Source of the DNA: a virus
Taxonomy: Duplodnaviria; Heunggongvirae; Uroviricota; Caudoviricetes
Length of the DNA stretch: 16,435 nucleotides
Virus record (IMG/VR): IMGVR_UViG_2690315742_000009
Span: 1-16,435 of that record
Direction: 5' to 3' (one strand)
Part shown: piece after piece, positions 4,504 through 14,740 of the stretch
Numbering within the stretch: the first letter of the stretch is position 1
Layout: every line of letters starts with the position of its first letter
Notes under the pieces: model-generated
What the model was told of the DNA's origin: nothing
Databases searched by the model: none
Seen by the model: the letters and a program-made list of their open reading frames with translations, nothing else
Position numbers and translations under genes: made by a program

Positions 4504-4556
4504 AGGGCGGCAGAGCAGTCACGGAGTAAAACTGATACCGCCAAACGTCACCAGAA
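4504..4556 (-). ncRNA. dicF: DicF small RNA (53 nt)
   Basis: Minus strand reads TTTCTGGTGACGTTTGGCGGTATCAGTTTTACTCCGTGACTGCTCTGCCGCCC followed by TTTT, which matches the 53-nt E. coli DicF sequence as I recall it. Contains a GC-rich terminator stem (GGCGG...CCGCC) and sits between a ydfC-like ORF and dicB as in the Qin operon. Confidence 0.8.
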
Positions 4557-10729: not shown

Positions 10730-11241
10730 GCGAGATTAATTATCAGGAAGGGCATGAAACGGCAGGGCAGGCAAAACCAGTTGCATGGCGATATCGCTAC
10801 GTGAAAAAAGGCGTTACGGACTTTCAGGAGAAGATGTGGGTTGGTGACTGGAAATATGTACCGACAAAAGAGGATTGCAACGACAGGCCGAGCTATGAGA
10901 TTCAGGCATTATTCACTACCCCGCCAGTCCCGGTGATATCAGAAGGACTGGTTAAAGCCGTGCGCTTTTATGAACAGGTAAAGCGTGAAAATCCGCCAGC
11001 CGAAACAGGAGCATGGAAAGACGCTGTTGACTGGGTGCTCAAAGAGGCCTGCTGTGCTGTCATTCTGGGTAAAGCCGACAATCCACTAGCATCCAGTAAT
11101 CAGGTTGGCGAATTAACAATGTGGGTTAAACGACTGGTCAGTCAACTGAAAAAAGCTAATCCAGACTGCAAATTACCGGAGATGGCGATGCATTACCTGA
11201 AACGAAATGGACTGATAAGCGTGGAGGATGTTTTACGATGA
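10726..11241 (+). CDS. Hypothetical protein (171 aa) with Ead/Ea22-like N-terminal motif
   Basis: ATG coupled to the upstream ORF (ATGA). N-terminus SEINYQEGHETAGQAKPVAW parallels the N-terminus of the 9713..10282 protein. Confidence 0.6.
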   Translation: MSEINYQEGHETAGQAKPVAWRYRYVKKGVTDFQEKMWVGDWKYVPTKEDCNDRPSYEIQALFTTPPVPVISEGLVKAVRFYEQVKRENPPAETGAWKDAVDWVLKEACCAVILGKADNPLASSNQVGELTMWVKRLVSQLKKANPDCKLPEMAMHYLKRNGLISVEDVLR

Positions 11242-11321
11242 CCTGGCCTGAGGCATTTACAACGGCAGGAATTGCAATGGCGGCGGCGCTGGTGGTGTAT
11301 TCGATTTGCCGCTGGGGATAA
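11238..11321 (+). CDS. Possible 27-aa hydrophobic peptide (MTWPEAFTTAGIAMAAALVVYSICRWG)
   Basis: ATG overlaps the stop of the 171-aa gene (ATGA); single predicted transmembrane-like stretch. Very short, so speculative. Confidence 0.25.
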   Translation: MTWPEAFTTAGIAMAAALVVYSICRWG

Positions 11322-11328
11322 AAACGGT

Positions 11329-11356
11329 TTGCGGGAAAAGGAGAGTTAAGTAGAAT
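11329..11356 (+). promoter_or_regulatory. Candidate promoter of the hok mRNA
   Basis: TTGCGG, 16-nt spacer, TAGAAT. The predicted start (about 11361-11365) coincides with a 5' element (GCGGGTGCTTGAGG, 11361-11374) that is complementary to the mRNA 3' end. Confidence 0.4.
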
Positions 11357-11475
11357 TGCAGCGGGTGCTTGAGGCTATCTGTCTCAGGCATGAACACCAA
11401 AAGGCAGATAGAGAAAAGCCCCAGTTAACATTACGCGTCCTGCAAGACGCTTAACATTAATCTGAGGCCATATCT

Positions 11476-11535
11476 ATGCGACACATAGAGATTAGCCTCT
11501 TACGGACCGAAAGGTCAAGGAGAAGCAGGCTATGA
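11476..11535 (+). CDS. Short upstream reading frame coupled to hok (mok-like, 19 codons)
   Basis: ATG at 11476; its TGA overlaps the hok ATG (ATGA). Analogous to mok-dependent translational coupling in hok/sok loci, but much shorter than classical mok. Confidence 0.3.
   Translation: MRHIEISLLRTERSRRSRL
11489..11518 (-). promoter_or_regulatory. Candidate promoter for a Sok-like antisense RNA
   Basis: Minus strand TTGACC (plus 11513-11518), 18-nt spacer, TAATCT (plus 11489-11494). Predicted antisense start near 11482, reading across the start of the upstream coupled frame. Confidence 0.4.
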
Positions 11536-11687
11536 AGCAGCAAAAGGCGATGTTAATCGCCCTGATCGTCATCTGTTTAACCGTCATAGTGACGGCACTG
11601 GTAACGAGGAAAGACCTCTGCGAGGTACGAATCCGAACCGGCCAGACGGAGGTCGCTGTCTTCACAGCTTACGAACCTGAGGAGTAA
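11532..11687 (+). CDS. hokD: Hok/Gef-family type I toxin (51 aa)
   Basis: AAGGAG SD. Protein MKQQKAMLIALIVICLTVIVTALVTRKDLCEVRIRTGQTEVAVFTAYEPEE has a single transmembrane helix plus a conserved Cys-containing periplasmic tail, and matches my memory of HokD (RelF). Confidence 0.85.
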   Translation: MKQQKAMLIALIVICLTVIVTALVTRKDLCEVRIRTGQTEVAVFTAYEPEE

Positions 11688-11755
11688 GAGACCAGGCGGG
11701 GGAGAAATCCCTCGCCACCTCTGATGTGTCAGGCATCCTCAACGCACCCGCACGT

Positions 11756-11783
11756 AACCCGCTTCGGCGGGTTTTGTTTTTTC
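11756..11783 (+). terminator. Rho-independent terminator of the hok transcript
   Basis: AACCCGC-TTCG-GCGGGTT (UUCG tetraloop, 7-bp stem) followed by TTGTTTTTT. Confidence 0.75.
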
Positions 11784-11854
11784 CTGGCATTCTGGTTTAC
11801 AATTCGCACGCCAGCCTGAACAACTGGCACCTGCTGCGCCAGCAGAGACAACCG

Positions 11855-12127
11855 ATGGCGCACAATACCAAATATCACAATTCTGATACCGACCTTGCCA
11901 GCAGGTGCGGGCTGTGTTCTCACGCATTCAAATATGACTGGTATCAGCACGATCCCTGCACTGAAGAACAGGCCGAATGGCTGATTCATAACTACCGCAG
12001 ACGTGGGTATGAGTTTAAGAAAGCCCTTAGCCTCGACTACCGTCACTGGATAATCTACGTCAGGCTCCCTTATTCCGAACGCCCGCCGCGTCCGTCCCGC
12101 ACATTCCAGCAACGCATCTGGAGGTAA
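11855..12127 (+). CDS. Small Cys/His-containing protein in the position of Qin rem (90 aa)
   Basis: ATG at 11855. The track's upstream start at 11726 would run through the hok terminator hairpin, so I truncated it. Contains CGLCSHAFKYDWYQHDPC. GGAGG near its 3' end serves the next gene. Confidence 0.5.
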   Translation: MAHNTKYHNSDTDLASRCGLCSHAFKYDWYQHDPCTEEQAEWLIHNYRRRGYEFKKALSLDYRHWIIYVRLPYSERPPRPSRTFQQRIWR

Positions 12128-14430: not shown

Positions 14431-14506
14431 GGCCCTTTAGCTCAGTGGTGAGAGCGAGCGACTCATAATCGCCAGGTCGCTGGTTCAAATCCAGCAAGGG
14501 CCACCA
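14431..14506 (+). tRNA. tRNA with CAU anticodon (Ile2-lysidine type or elongator Met)
   Basis: Hand-folded cloverleaf: acceptor GGCCCTT/AAGGGCC, D-stem GCTC/GAGC, anticodon loop CTCATAA, T-loop TTCAAAT, encoded CCA. Close to E. coli ileX as recalled. Confidence 0.8.
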
Positions 14507-14507
14507 G

Positions 14508-14584
14508 CCGCCACTAGCTCATCAGGAAAGAGCGTCAACCCTTTAAGTTGAGTGTGCGAGGTTCGAGTCCCCGGTGGCGGTCCA
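14508..14584 (+). tRNA. tRNA-like gene with unusual anticodon loop CCTTTAA (nominal anticodon UUU, Lys-type; C at position 33)
   Basis: Cloverleaf folds: acceptor CCGCCAC/GTGGCGG, D-stem GCTC/GAGC, perfect anticodon stem TCAAC/GTTGA, T-loop TTCGAGT, encoded CCA. T-stem has one A-C mismatch and position 33 is C, not the near-universal U. Confidence 0.55.
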
Positions 14585-14586
14585 GT

Positions 14587-14662
<76 letters not shown>

Positions 14663-14665
14663 TAT

Positions 14666-14740
<75 letters not shown>

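What the first reader, a model, noticed from the sequence alone, without database searches (positions are those of the whole stretch)
11329..11785. Complete hok-type type I toxin locus with predicted long-range 5'-3' pairing and antisense promoter
The locus has a promoter (TTGCGG-16-TAGAAT), a long structured leader, a short upstream frame whose stop overlaps the hok ATG (ATGA), the Hok toxin ORF and a strong terminator. The predicted mRNA 5' end (GCGGGTGCTTGAGG, 11361-11374) is complementary with one bulge to CCTCAACGCACCCGC at the 3' end (11737-11751), the classic arrangement that keeps full-length hok mRNA inactive. A minus-strand promoter (TTGACC-18-TAATCT) would drive a Sok-like antisense RNA across the start of the upstream frame. 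K-12 hokD, by contrast, lies directly downstream of relBE without its own regulatory region.
Basis: partly seen in the sequence, partly recalled or inferred. Interest (0 to 1): 0.5.

Follow-up and report, generated by a model that had tools for sequence, protein, structure and literature searches.

The report
Intact prophage hok/sok toxin-antitoxin locus

Summary
Window 11329-11785 carries:
- a Hok/Gef toxin ORF (11532-11687; Pfam E 1e-23; identical to K-12 HokD);
- a leader matching the Rfam hok/sok model (106.7 bits, threshold 59);
- a 19-codon mok-like frame whose UGA overlaps the hok AUG;
- an intrinsic terminator;
- a 14-bp, one-bulge pairing between the mRNA 5' end (11361-11374) and 11737-11751.

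The 5'-3' pairing dominates the predicted fold (probability about 1.0). All 37 distinct homologous loci from five genera keep it, with compensatory changes. In silico removal of the 3' end makes the alternative active fold accessible, as in plasmid R1.

The antisense promoter lies where homologues have theirs, and where the Sp5 sokW promoter would align. A general promoter scan flagged neither promoter.

K-12 hokD does lack the whole upstream region.

The locus is not new. At least 80% of it is found in 3909 of 5426 complete E. coli genomes, and Sp5 hokW-sokW (92% identical) is a proven type I system.

The one mildly notable detail is the short AUGA-terminated mok, a minority but widespread allele.

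Expression and toxicity of this particular copy are inferred, not shown.

The parts
11329..11334 (+). Proposed hok -35 hexamer TTGCGG. It is weak (3 of 6) and not conserved.
   Evidence: Sequence. Not flagged by the scan. The upstream sequence differs between lineages.
11351..11356 (+). hok promoter -10 hexamer TAGAAT.
   Evidence: Nearly every homologue listed has a TAnnnT hexamer exactly 4 nt upstream of the conserved 5' motif (one has GAAAAT), although the sequence further upstream is unrelated between lineages.
11361..11783 (+). Predicted full-length mok-hok mRNA, from the start near 11361-11363 to the terminator U-tract.
   Evidence: The Rfam RF01794 match begins at 11363. Fold energy -178.7 kcal/mol, z = -8.3. 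Terminator. The transcript ends are inferred, not mapped.
11361..11374 (+). tac element: the 5' end, which pairs with fbi in the full-length mRNA, with ucb after 3' processing, or with the segment just downstream (metastable hairpin).
   Evidence: Conserved in 37 homologues.
11375..11411 (+). 5' stem-loop of the leader, present in both conformers.
   Evidence: The RNAalifold pairs 15-22 with 44-51 include some two-sided changes.
11416..11424 (+). ucb / anti-Shine-Dalgarno box (AAGCCCCAG). It pairs with the mok SD in the full-length mRNA and with tac in the truncated form.
   Evidence: P(mok SD paired with ucb) = 1.0 in the full-length fold. Consensus pairs 59-63 with 103-107, including AU:26 and GC:11 at one pair. 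The Rfam consensus shows the tac/ucb stem.
11410..11484 (-). Predicted Sok-like antisense RNA of about 70 nt. Its 5' tail covers the mok start codon, followed by a long hairpin and a UUUUCUCU tail.
   Evidence: Fold -31.7 kcal/mol, z = -5.2. Sp5 sokW shares 71 nt of complementarity with the hokW 5' UTR (PMC8621323). The ends are inferred.
11489..11518 (-). Sok promoter: -35 TTGACC (11518-11513), 18-nt spacer, -10 TAATCT (11494-11489).
   Evidence: The same position holds TTGACC or TTGCCT, a 17-18 nt spacer and TAATCT/TAACCT-type hexamers in the 37 homologues. Below the scan threshold.
11464..11467 (+). mok Shine-Dalgarno GAGG, 8 nt upstream of the mok ATG.
   Evidence: Sequence. Invariant columns G104-G107. 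Paired to ucb in the full-length fold.
11476..11535 (+). mok-like leader frame of 19 codons. Its UGA stop overlaps the hok AUG (AUGA).
   Evidence: Frame comparison across homologues. The identical 76-nt allele falls in the >=99% identity band in 783 E. coli records.
11494..11503 (+). dcb region (AGCCUCUUAC). It forms the 3' arm of the hairpin holding the mok SD and AUG in the active conformer, and lies opposite the Sok -10.
   Evidence: Rfam consensus hairpin. Invariant columns. Assignment by analogy with R1 (PMC9841398).
11517..11522 (+). hok Shine-Dalgarno AAGGAG, 9 nt upstream of the hok ATG.
   Evidence: Sequence. Conserved.
11532..11687 (+). hok toxin ORF, 51 aa, with a single transmembrane helix.
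   Evidence: Pfam HOK_GEF E 1.2e-23. Sequence identical to that of L003, which is annotated HokD WP_000813254.1, the same accession as K-12-type hokD.
11665..11679 (+). Small hairpin CAG-CUUACGAAC-CUG presenting UACG (Tyr47 codon TAC, 11670-11672). It resembles the TadA A-to-I editing sites reported in hok mRNAs.
   Evidence: Pairs 311-325 (CG:22, UA:14) and 312-324 (GC:22, AU:13). TACGAA is invariant. The literature statement is quoted. Editing of this copy is not shown.
11695..11716 (+). GC-rich 3'-UTR hairpin. It may act as a stop for 3' exonucleolytic trimming (inference).
   Evidence: Consensus pairs 344-351 with 363-370.
11737..11751 (+). fbi element, complementary to the mRNA 5' end.
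11756..11783 (+). Intrinsic terminator: 7-bp stem with UUCG loop, then a T-run.

Best explanation
The region is an intact hok/sok-type type I toxin-antitoxin cassette of the hokD/hokW subgroup. It sits in the nin region of a lambdoid prophage, between the replication genes and DUF968-RusA-Q.

Proposed mechanism, by homology with plasmid R1 hok/sok and Sp5 hokW-sokW:
1. A roughly 420-nt mok-hok mRNA starts near 11361-11363 and ends at the terminator.
2. In the full-length mRNA the 5' tac element (11361-11374) is clamped to the 3' fbi element (11737-11751). This leaves the upstream box (11416-11424) free to sequester the mok Shine-Dalgarno, so the RNA is neither translated nor bound by the antisense RNA.
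3. Slow 3' trimming removes fbi. tac can then pair with the upstream box, and the mok ribosome-binding site is released.
4. A roughly 70-nt unstable antisense RNA, made from the minus-strand promoter at 11518-11489, pairs across the mok start and triggers RNase III cleavage.
5. If the antisense RNA decays (prophage loss or induction), ribosomes translate the 19-codon mok frame and terminate at the UGA overlapping the hok AUG. They then initiate hok, whose 51-aa membrane peptide depolarises the inner membrane.

Shown here: presence and conservation of all sequence and structure elements. Inferred: transcription, processing, antisense control, toxicity and biological role.
For: - Toxin. Pfam HOK_GEF E 1.2e-23. 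The protein is identical to K-12 HokD.
- Leader. Rfam RF01794 full-length match at 11363-11534, 106.7 bits against a gathering score of 59.
- Full-length fold. The minimum-free-energy fold pairs nt 1-14 with 11737-11751, z = -8.3. P(tac-fbi) is about 1.0 and P(mok SD paired with ucb) = 1.0.
- Switch. Forcing tac/ucb costs +17.6 kcal/mol in the full-length RNA but only +0.3 after removing the last 47 nt. tac/ucb is the minimum-free-energy fold of the isolated leader.
- Conservation of the 5'-3' duplex. All 37 distinct homologues from Escherichia, Kluyvera, Photorhabdus, Pantoea and Citrobacter keep a 12-14 bp duplex.
- Covariation. RNAalifold recovers the pairing independently, with UA:24, CG:11, UG:1 and CA:1 at one pair. 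In that register 83% of cells are paired, against 34-55% when the 3' side is slid by 1-3 columns, and 0 of 500 shuffles reach the observed covariation score.
- hok promoter. The -10 lies at a fixed 4-nt distance from the conserved 5' motif in nearly all homologues.
- Antisense RNA. Promoter hexamers are conserved in position. The predicted RNA folds at -31.7 kcal/mol, z = -5.2, with a U-tail.
- Relatives. Sp5 hokW-sokW is 92% identical and is experimentally a type I system with an RNase III- and Hfq-dependent antisense RNA (PMC8621323).
- mok. In R1, mok translation only up to the hok initiation region is needed (PMC9841398). This is what the 19-codon frame provides.
Against: - Both promoters score only 8 of 12 against the sigma-70 consensus and were not flagged by the scan.
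- The minimum-free-energy fold of the 3'-truncated RNA is the local 5' hairpin rather than tac/ucb. tac/ucb has about 13% of the ensemble.
- The mok frame is the minority short form: 4 of 37 homologues. It could reduce coupling.
- Chromosomal hok loci tested by others did not mediate post-segregational killing (as summarised in the bioRxiv paper 10.1101/2025.08.07.668861).
- No expression or toxicity data exist for this copy.
Confidence: 0.9

Rival explanations
1. The locus has the full hok/sok sequence anatomy but is functionally silent: a tolerated relic, as has been reported for several chromosomal hok loci. Possible reasons are weak promoters, or a short mok frame that couples poorly to hok.
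For: - Promoters score 8 of 12 and are not flagged.
- Short mok occurs in only 4 of 37 homologues.
- The literature reports that chromosomal hokA, hokB and hokC did not mediate post-segregational killing.
- A decayed copy with an intact ORF exists (L006).
Against: - No disabling mutation is visible in any element.
- The exact 76-nt mok-region allele falls in the >=99% identity band in 783 E. coli records. That argues against a recent lesion.
- The 92%-identical Sp5 locus is active.
Confidence: 0.2
2. The cassette's role is not prophage maintenance. It acts as a lysis and release helper during induction, as shown for Sp5 hokW-sokW. Rightward early transcription reading through the nin region would interfere with the convergent antisense promoter and deplete the antisense RNA. 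This is a rival about function only, not about identity.
For: - In Sp5, sokW RNA disappears and HokW appears after mitomycin C in a RecA-dependent way, and phage release halves without the locus.
- The window locus lies in sense orientation between the replication genes and Q. The scan found no intrinsic terminator in the roughly 230 nt upstream that were scanned (from 11100).
Against: The Sp5 locus lies elsewhere in its prophage, beyond the large orf71 near the end of the record, so the trigger may differ. There are no data for this prophage.
Confidence: 0.35
3. The 5'-3' complementarity is a chance match with no role.
For: Taken alone, the duplex is matched or beaten by 5 of 2000 shuffles of the rest of the mRNA. 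That is only moderately rare for a GC-rich 16-mer.
Against: The pairing is kept in all 37 distinct homologues across five genera, with compensatory U-A to C-G and G-C to A-U changes. It dominates the ensemble.
Confidence: 0.01

Closest known systems
hokW-sokW of Stx2 prophage Sp5 / VT2-Sakai (and 933W-type phages)
   Same: - 92% nucleotide identity over window 11320-11759.
- Same tac sequence, leader layout, fbi sequence and antisense promoter position.
- Carried by a lambdoid prophage.
[quoted passage not shown]
   Different: - In Sp5 the mok frame starts 57 nt upstream and is an in-frame 70-codon N-terminal extension of Hok. Here it starts 56 nt upstream and stops at the hok AUG after 19 codons.
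- The antisense promoter is TTGCCT-17-TAACCT in Sp5 and TTGACC-18-TAATCT here.
- The Sok 5' target segment differs in sequence.
- The Hok C-terminus differs (VDYESEK in Sp5, TAYEPEE here).
- The Sp5 copy has no obvious terminator hairpin right after fbi.
- It lies at a different place in the prophage.
hok/sok (parB) of plasmid R1
   Same: Same architecture and same predicted logic: tac/fbi clamp, ucb sequestering the mok SD, tac/ucb in the processed RNA, metastable 5' hairpin, a mok start overlapped by the antisense RNA, and 19 mok codons before the hok start.
   Different: - The protein is only distantly similar: HokW is 44% identical to R1 Hok.
- R1 mok is 70 codons and overlaps hok; here it ends at the hok AUG.
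- R1 is on a plasmid; this copy is in a prophage.
- R1 sequence was not fetched or aligned here.
hokD (relF) of E. coli K-12 Qin prophage
   Same: Identical 51-aa protein (WP_000813254.1). The region from 14 nt upstream of the ATG through fbi and the terminator is 98.5% identical (window 11518-11781). The downstream neighbourhood also contains a DUF968 gene.
   Different: K-12 has relB-relE immediately upstream. It lacks the hok promoter, tac, ucb, the mok SD and start, the Sok -10 and the Sok RNA body. The window copy is the complete form.
hokC/gef-mokC-sokC type chromosomal loci
   Same: Same leader family with the same tac motif GCGGGTGCTTGAGGC and an fbi complement. Some alleles (E. ruysiae, E. 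whittamii) have the same 19-codon AUGA-terminated mok.
   Different: The leader is about 20 nt shorter (shorter Sok hairpin). Hok is about 82% identical. The fbi pairing uses G-U and lacks the two outer pairs. These loci are at a fixed chromosomal site rather than in a prophage.

Membership tests
[quoted passage not shown] | Small Hok/Gef-family membrane toxin ORF | tested here: met
   Pfam PF01848 HOK_GEF, E 1.2e-23, 82.9 bits against a cut-off of 22.
[quoted passage not shown] | Leader homologous in sequence and structure to the hok mRNA 5' UTR | tested here: met
   Rfam RF01794: all model positions 1-157 matched at 11363-11534 (+), 106.7 bits against a gathering score of 59. The model, although named sok, matches the hok-sense strand and ends on the hok AUG.
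[quoted passage not shown] | Long-range tac/fbi pairing of the mRNA 5' and 3' ends | tested here: met
   Minimum-free-energy fold and ensemble. Duplex -27.3 kcal/mol, matched by 5 of 2000 shuffles. Kept in 37 of 37 homologues with compensatory changes.
[quoted passage not shown] | Upstream box sequesters the mok SD in the full-length RNA; the tac/ucb alternative becomes available when fbi is removed | tested here: met
   P(SD paired with ucb) = 1.0. tac/ucb costs +17.6 kcal/mol in the full-length RNA, +0.3 in the truncated RNA, and is the minimum-free-energy fold of the isolated leader. There is covariation in the ucb/SD stem. This is thermodynamic prediction only; the truncated minimum-free-energy fold is the local hairpin.
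[quoted passage not shown] | mok leader frame with its own SD, starting inside the antisense target and translated at least to the hok initiation region | tested here: met
   GAGG, 8 nt, ATG 11476; 19 codons ending in AUGA at the hok start. A start codon is found at the equivalent position in 36 of 37 homologues.
[quoted passage not shown] | cis-encoded antisense gene: promoter opposite the dcb / hok SD region, with a hairpin and U-tail | tested here: met
   TTGACC-18-TAATCT lies at the position conserved in the homologues. Predicted RNA folds at -31.7 kcal/mol, z = -5.2, with a UUUUCUCU tail. Caveats: the promoter matches 8 of 12 and is not flagged by the scan, and its conservation is confounded with hok mRNA structure on the other strand.
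[quoted passage not shown] | The antisense RNA is actually made, is unstable, and represses via RNase III | not testable with these tools
   Shown only for the 92%-identical Sp5 locus (PMC8621323).
[quoted passage not shown] | Slow 3' processing of the full-length mRNA to the active form | not testable with these tools
   Established for R1 (PMC9841398). Here only the energetic consequence was modelled.
[quoted passage not shown] | Toxicity of the peptide | not testable with these tools
   The protein is identical to K-12 HokD. HokW, which differs mainly at the C-terminus, arrests growth.
K-12-type hokD remnant (relBE-hokD) | The toxin gene directly follows relE, with no promoter, leader or antisense gene of its own | tested here: not met
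   The window has the full 171-nt leader. K-12-type homology starts only at 11518.
hokW-sokW (Sp5/933W) allele | 70-codon mokW in frame with hokW | tested here: not met
   The window mok starts 56 nt upstream of hok, not 57, and has 19 codons. Otherwise the loci are 92% identical.

The most novel reading that the evidence does not exclude
The 19-codon mok that terminates on the hok start codon (AUGA) may be a functional termination-reinitiation variant rather than a lesion. It occurs in two separate hok lineages (hokD type here; hokC type in E. ruysiae and E. whittamii). Across the family, mok occurs in all three possible registers relative to hok: in-frame extension, +1 overlap and short AUGA. 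That would be a natural demonstration that only ribosome delivery to the hok start matters, not the Mok peptide. It agrees with published mutagenesis, so it would refine the model rather than change it.
Probability: 0.55. Interest if true: 0.2.

Novelty: already known. Interest (0 to 1): 0.1.

Why it matters
There is little new here. The result confirms that lambdoid prophages carry the complete form of the module that survives in E. coli K-12 only as the truncated relBE-hokD remnant. It also shows that this copy keeps every regulatory RNA element of the R1 paradigm.

It is useful for annotation: the mok frame, the Sok RNA, tac/fbi and a possible TadA editing hairpin are not annotated in RefSeq records, which list only hokD.

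It is also a reminder that a cell often carries several such loci. Among E. coli genomes that have any match, the median is 2 places and the maximum is 10. The variable Sok target segments of these loci probably keep them insulated from each other.

Tried and rejected
- Promoter scan. The generic sigma-70 scan over 11100-12000 found no promoter on either strand. I therefore did not use hexamer quality as evidence and relied on positional conservation.
- Truncated fold. Folding the 3'-truncated mRNA did not give the textbook tac/ucb stem as the minimum-free-energy structure. It gave the local 5' hairpin. Constrained folding showed that the two are within 0.3 kcal/mol. I report the switch as becoming accessible, not as predicted outright.
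- Alignment register. Column-wise pair counting under-counts the distal half of tac/fbi, because Photorhabdus-type loci lack the bulge and are shifted by one column. Per-sequence duplex folding resolved this.
- Cognate against non-cognate pairs. Cognate 5'/3' duplex energies differ only slightly from non-cognate ones (-23.4 against -21.8 kcal/mol), because few variants exist. I did not use this as evidence.
- Source of the window. A 3.9-kb query is at most about 95% identical to any complete E. coli genome, so the source strain was not identified.
- Chance complementarity: rejected on the comparative data.
- R1. I did not fetch R1 itself; the comparison rests on Rfam and on the literature.

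Full report
**What is in the sequence**

- hok promoter: TTGCGG at 11329-11334, 16 nt, TAGAAT at 11351-11356.
- 5' element: GCGGGTGCTTGAGG at 11361-11374.
- Upstream frame: a Shine-Dalgarno GAGG at 11464-11467 lies 8 nt before an ATG at 11476. This opens a 19-codon frame (MRHIEISLLRTERSRRSRL) whose TGA (11533-11535) overlaps the ATG of the next ORF as ATGA.
- Toxin ORF: 11532-11687 encodes 51 aa. It is a Hok/Gef protein (Pfam PF01848, E 1.2e-23). The same sequence in locus L003 is annotated HokD WP_000813254.1, the accession also used for K-12-type hokD.
- 3' element and terminator: CCTCAACGCACCCGC at 11737-11751, then a stem at 11756-11773 with a T-run, which the scan found.
- Minus-strand promoter: TTGACC (11518-11513), 18 nt, TAATCT (11494-11489).

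**Is it more than chance?**
- The Rfam model RF01794 matches 11363-11534 on the plus strand over its full length, with 106.7 bits against a gathering score of 59. The model is named sok, but it matches the hok-sense strand and ends on the hok AUG. It therefore recognises the hok leader, which is the Sok target.
- The predicted 421-nt mRNA folds at -178.7 kcal/mol, against -126.3 ± 6.3 for shuffles (z = -8.3). Its minimum-free-energy structure pairs nt 1-14 with 11737-11751.
- The 5' 16-mer finds its best partner in the mRNA exactly there (-27.3 kcal/mol), and 5 of 2000 dinucleotide shuffles do as well. On its own this is only moderately rare; the comparative data are what settle it.

**Comparative evidence**

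A scan of one genome per species returned 53 loci encoding relatives of this Hok. After removing truncated, decayed and duplicate copies, 37 distinct loci remained. They come from Escherichia, Shigella, Kluyvera, Photorhabdus, Pantoea, Citrobacter and related enterobacteria, and align from the 5' motif to beyond the 3' element (alignment A1).
- Every one of the 37 can form a 12-14 bp 5'-3' duplex, with energies of -18.5 to -30.5 kcal/mol.
- RNAalifold, given no hint, places the 5'-3' helix in the consensus structure. At one pair the counts are U-A 24, C-G 11, U-G 1 and C-A 1.
The covariation score is 0.183 against 0.066-0.113, and 0 of 500 shuffles reach it.
- The unpaired cells in the distal half are a register effect. 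Photorhabdus-type loci lack the bulged C and are shifted by one column, yet they pair perfectly when folded one by one.
- GAGG-to-GAGA and GAGG-to-GAAG changes at the 5' end are matched by CCUC-to-UCUC and CCUC-to-CUUC changes at the 3' end.

**The conformational switch**

In the full-length RNA, the ensemble probability that tac pairs with fbi is about 1.0. The mok Shine-Dalgarno is paired with the upstream box at 11416-11424 with probability 1.0. The stem joining that box to the Shine-Dalgarno region shows covariation (A-U 26 / G-C 11, and G-C 22 / A-U 14).

Forcing the alternative tac/upstream-box stem, which is the one drawn in the Rfam consensus, costs +17.6 kcal/mol in the full-length RNA. 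It costs only +0.3 kcal/mol once the last 47 nt are removed, and it is the minimum-free-energy structure of the isolated leader.

The minimum-free-energy fold of the truncated RNA is instead a local hairpin, in which tac pairs with the segment just downstream. This corresponds to the metastable co-transcriptional hairpin described for R1.

These three partners of tac, and the roles of fbi, ucb and dcb, are the published R1 model (PMC9841398).

**Promoters**

The sigma-70 scan flagged neither promoter. Each matches only 8 of 12 consensus positions.
- hok promoter. Nearly every homologue listed has a TAnnnT hexamer exactly 4 nt upstream of the conserved G(C)GGG 5' motif (one has GAAAAT), although the sequence further upstream, including the -35, is unrelated between lineages. 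This supports a transcript start at 11361-11363.
- Antisense promoter. TTGACC or TTGCCT, a 17-18 nt spacer and a TAATCT/TAACCT-type hexamer occupy the same columns in the homologues. This conservation cannot be separated from the conserved hok mRNA structure on the other strand.
- Experimental support from a relative. In the 92%-identical Sp5 locus, mutations introduced into the sokW promoter sequence (around its -10 element) abolished protection, and sokW RNA was seen on Northern blots. The paper's text as read here gives no promoter sequence, so the positional equivalence to my hexamers is inferred.
- Predicted antisense RNA. The RNA at 11484 to 11410 folds into a short 5' region covering the mok start, a long hairpin and a UUUUCUCU tail (-31.7 kcal/mol, z = -5.2). 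The terminator scan did not flag it, presumably because the stem is interrupted. Its length of about 70 nt fits the 71-nt overlap reported for sokW.

**The mok frame**

Among the 37 loci the mok start is at a fixed place, but its register relative to hok varies.
- In 25 loci it lies 57 nt upstream, giving an in-frame N-terminal extension of Hok. Sp5 mokW and the hokC type belong here.
- In 7 loci it lies 58 nt upstream, giving a +1 frame that overlaps most of hok.
- In 4 loci it lies 56 nt upstream, giving the 19-codon frame that stops at AUGA. These are the window, a 98%-identical E. coli copy (L003), and hokC-type loci of E. ruysiae and E. whittamii.
- One locus has no ATG there.

The window's exact 76-nt allele falls in the >=99% identity band in 783 E. 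coli records, so it is not a private frameshift. [quoted passage not shown] The short frame is therefore expected to work, by termination-reinitiation. This is inference.

**Context and the K-12 contrast**

The window is a lambdoid prophage. In order it contains a RecE-like exonuclease, DicF RNA, a CI-type repressor, YdaT, a DnaC-like loader and DUF1627. The hok locus follows, then DUF968, RusA, antiterminator Q, four tRNA genes, a P21-type holin and a lysozyme.

The hok locus lies in the nin region in the same orientation as the rightward operon. The scan found no terminator in the roughly 230 nt upstream that it covered, from 11100.

In K-12-type genomes, homology to the window begins only at 11518, 14 nt before the hokD ATG and directly after relB-relE. 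K-12 hokD therefore keeps fbi and the terminator.

**How common it is, and what is already known**

At least 80% of the 471-nt query is found in 3909 of 5426 complete E. coli genomes. Genomes that have any match carry a median of 2 places and at most 10. Among phage records, 74 cover at least 80% of the query.

RefSeq annotates only hokD at these sites. Phage records variously call it gef homolog, MokW, host killer protein or RelF.

The Sp5 hokW-sokW locus is 92% identical over 11320-11759. [quoted passage not shown] After RecA-dependent induction, sokW RNA disappears and HokW appears; deleting the locus delays growth arrest and halves phage release (PMC8621323). A recent survey finds hok genes enriched in prophages (bioRxiv 10.1101/2025.08.07.668861).

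**Verdict**

The locus is an intact member of a well-known family, not a new thing.

Still inferred for this copy: transcription from the two weak promoters, 3' processing, antisense control, toxicity, and whether its role is prophage retention, lysis help on induction, or nothing measurable.

Noticed in passing
window 11665-11679 (+): Inside hok, a small hairpin CAG-CUUACGAAC-CUG presents UACG, with the Tyr47 codon TAC at 11670-11672. TACGAA is invariant in all 37 homologues, and the two outer stem pairs covary (CG:22/UA:14 and GC:22/AU:13). This looks like the TadA A-to-I editing substrate reported for hok mRNAs (Tyr to Cys). Editing of this copy is not shown.
   Followed up: partly
window 11238-11321 (+): A 27-codon hydrophobic ORF (MTWPEAFTTAGIAMAAALVVYSICRWG). 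Its ATG overlaps the TGA of the upstream 171-aa ORF (ATGA). It stays open, with mostly conservative changes, in four other loci including Sp5. It may be an unannotated small membrane protein just upstream of the hok promoter. RefSeq annotates nothing between the upstream pseudogene and hokD in a 98%-identical locus.
   Followed up: partly
window 11497-11503 with 11684-11690 (+): RNAalifold predicts a second long-range helix between CUCUUAC (just 3' of the mok-start hairpin, opposite the Sok promoter spacer) and GUAAGAG, which spans the hok stop codon. All seven pairs are essentially invariant in the 37 loci, so covariation neither supports nor contradicts it.
   Followed up: no
window 4505-4556 (-): DicF antisense sRNA: full-length Rfam match, 76.7 bits. 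This marks the prophage as Qin/dic-like in its immunity region.
   Followed up: no
window 14431-14740 (+): A cluster of four tRNA genes between Q and the holin. ARAGORN calls them Met(cat), Lys(ttt), Thr(tgt) and Gly(tcc). The second scores much lower in Rfam (44.4 bits). A related E. coli prophage has Ile and Arg tRNAs at this place instead.
   Followed up: no
window 11363-11534 (+): The Rfam family RF01794, named 'sok antitoxin', matches the hok-sense strand and ends on the hok AUG. It models the hok leader rather than the antisense RNA. Annotations derived from it may therefore put 'sok' on the wrong strand, at about twice its true length.
   Followed up: partly
L028 (Kluyvera sp. CHPC 1.2972), upstream of hok at 1001: The K-12-type junction, in which a relE 3' end is fused to a leaderless hokD, also occurs in a Kluyvera genome with near-identical upstream sequence. 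This suggests the remnant arrangement itself has moved horizontally.
   Followed up: no
L018, L023; phage record PP818812.1: Hok loci 96-100% identical to the E. coli type appear on tiny contigs assigned to Acinetobacter idrijaensis (275 bp) and Xanthomonas pisi (431 bp), and in an 'Actinobacillus phage' record. Assembly contamination or mislabelling seems likely.
   Followed up: no
L006 (E. coli ECMA0423), upstream of hok at 1001: A copy with a Hok ORF 100% identical to the window's, but with a leader that has lost the tac motif and carries several indels. It is an example of regulatory decay with the toxin ORF preserved.
   Followed up: no
alignment A1, columns 108-133 (window about 11468-11487): The segment around the mok start, which is the target of the Sok 5' tail, is the most variable part of the leader among homologues, while its flanks are nearly invariant. 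This would fit selection against cross-talk between the several hok loci in one genome. Not tested.
   Followed up: no
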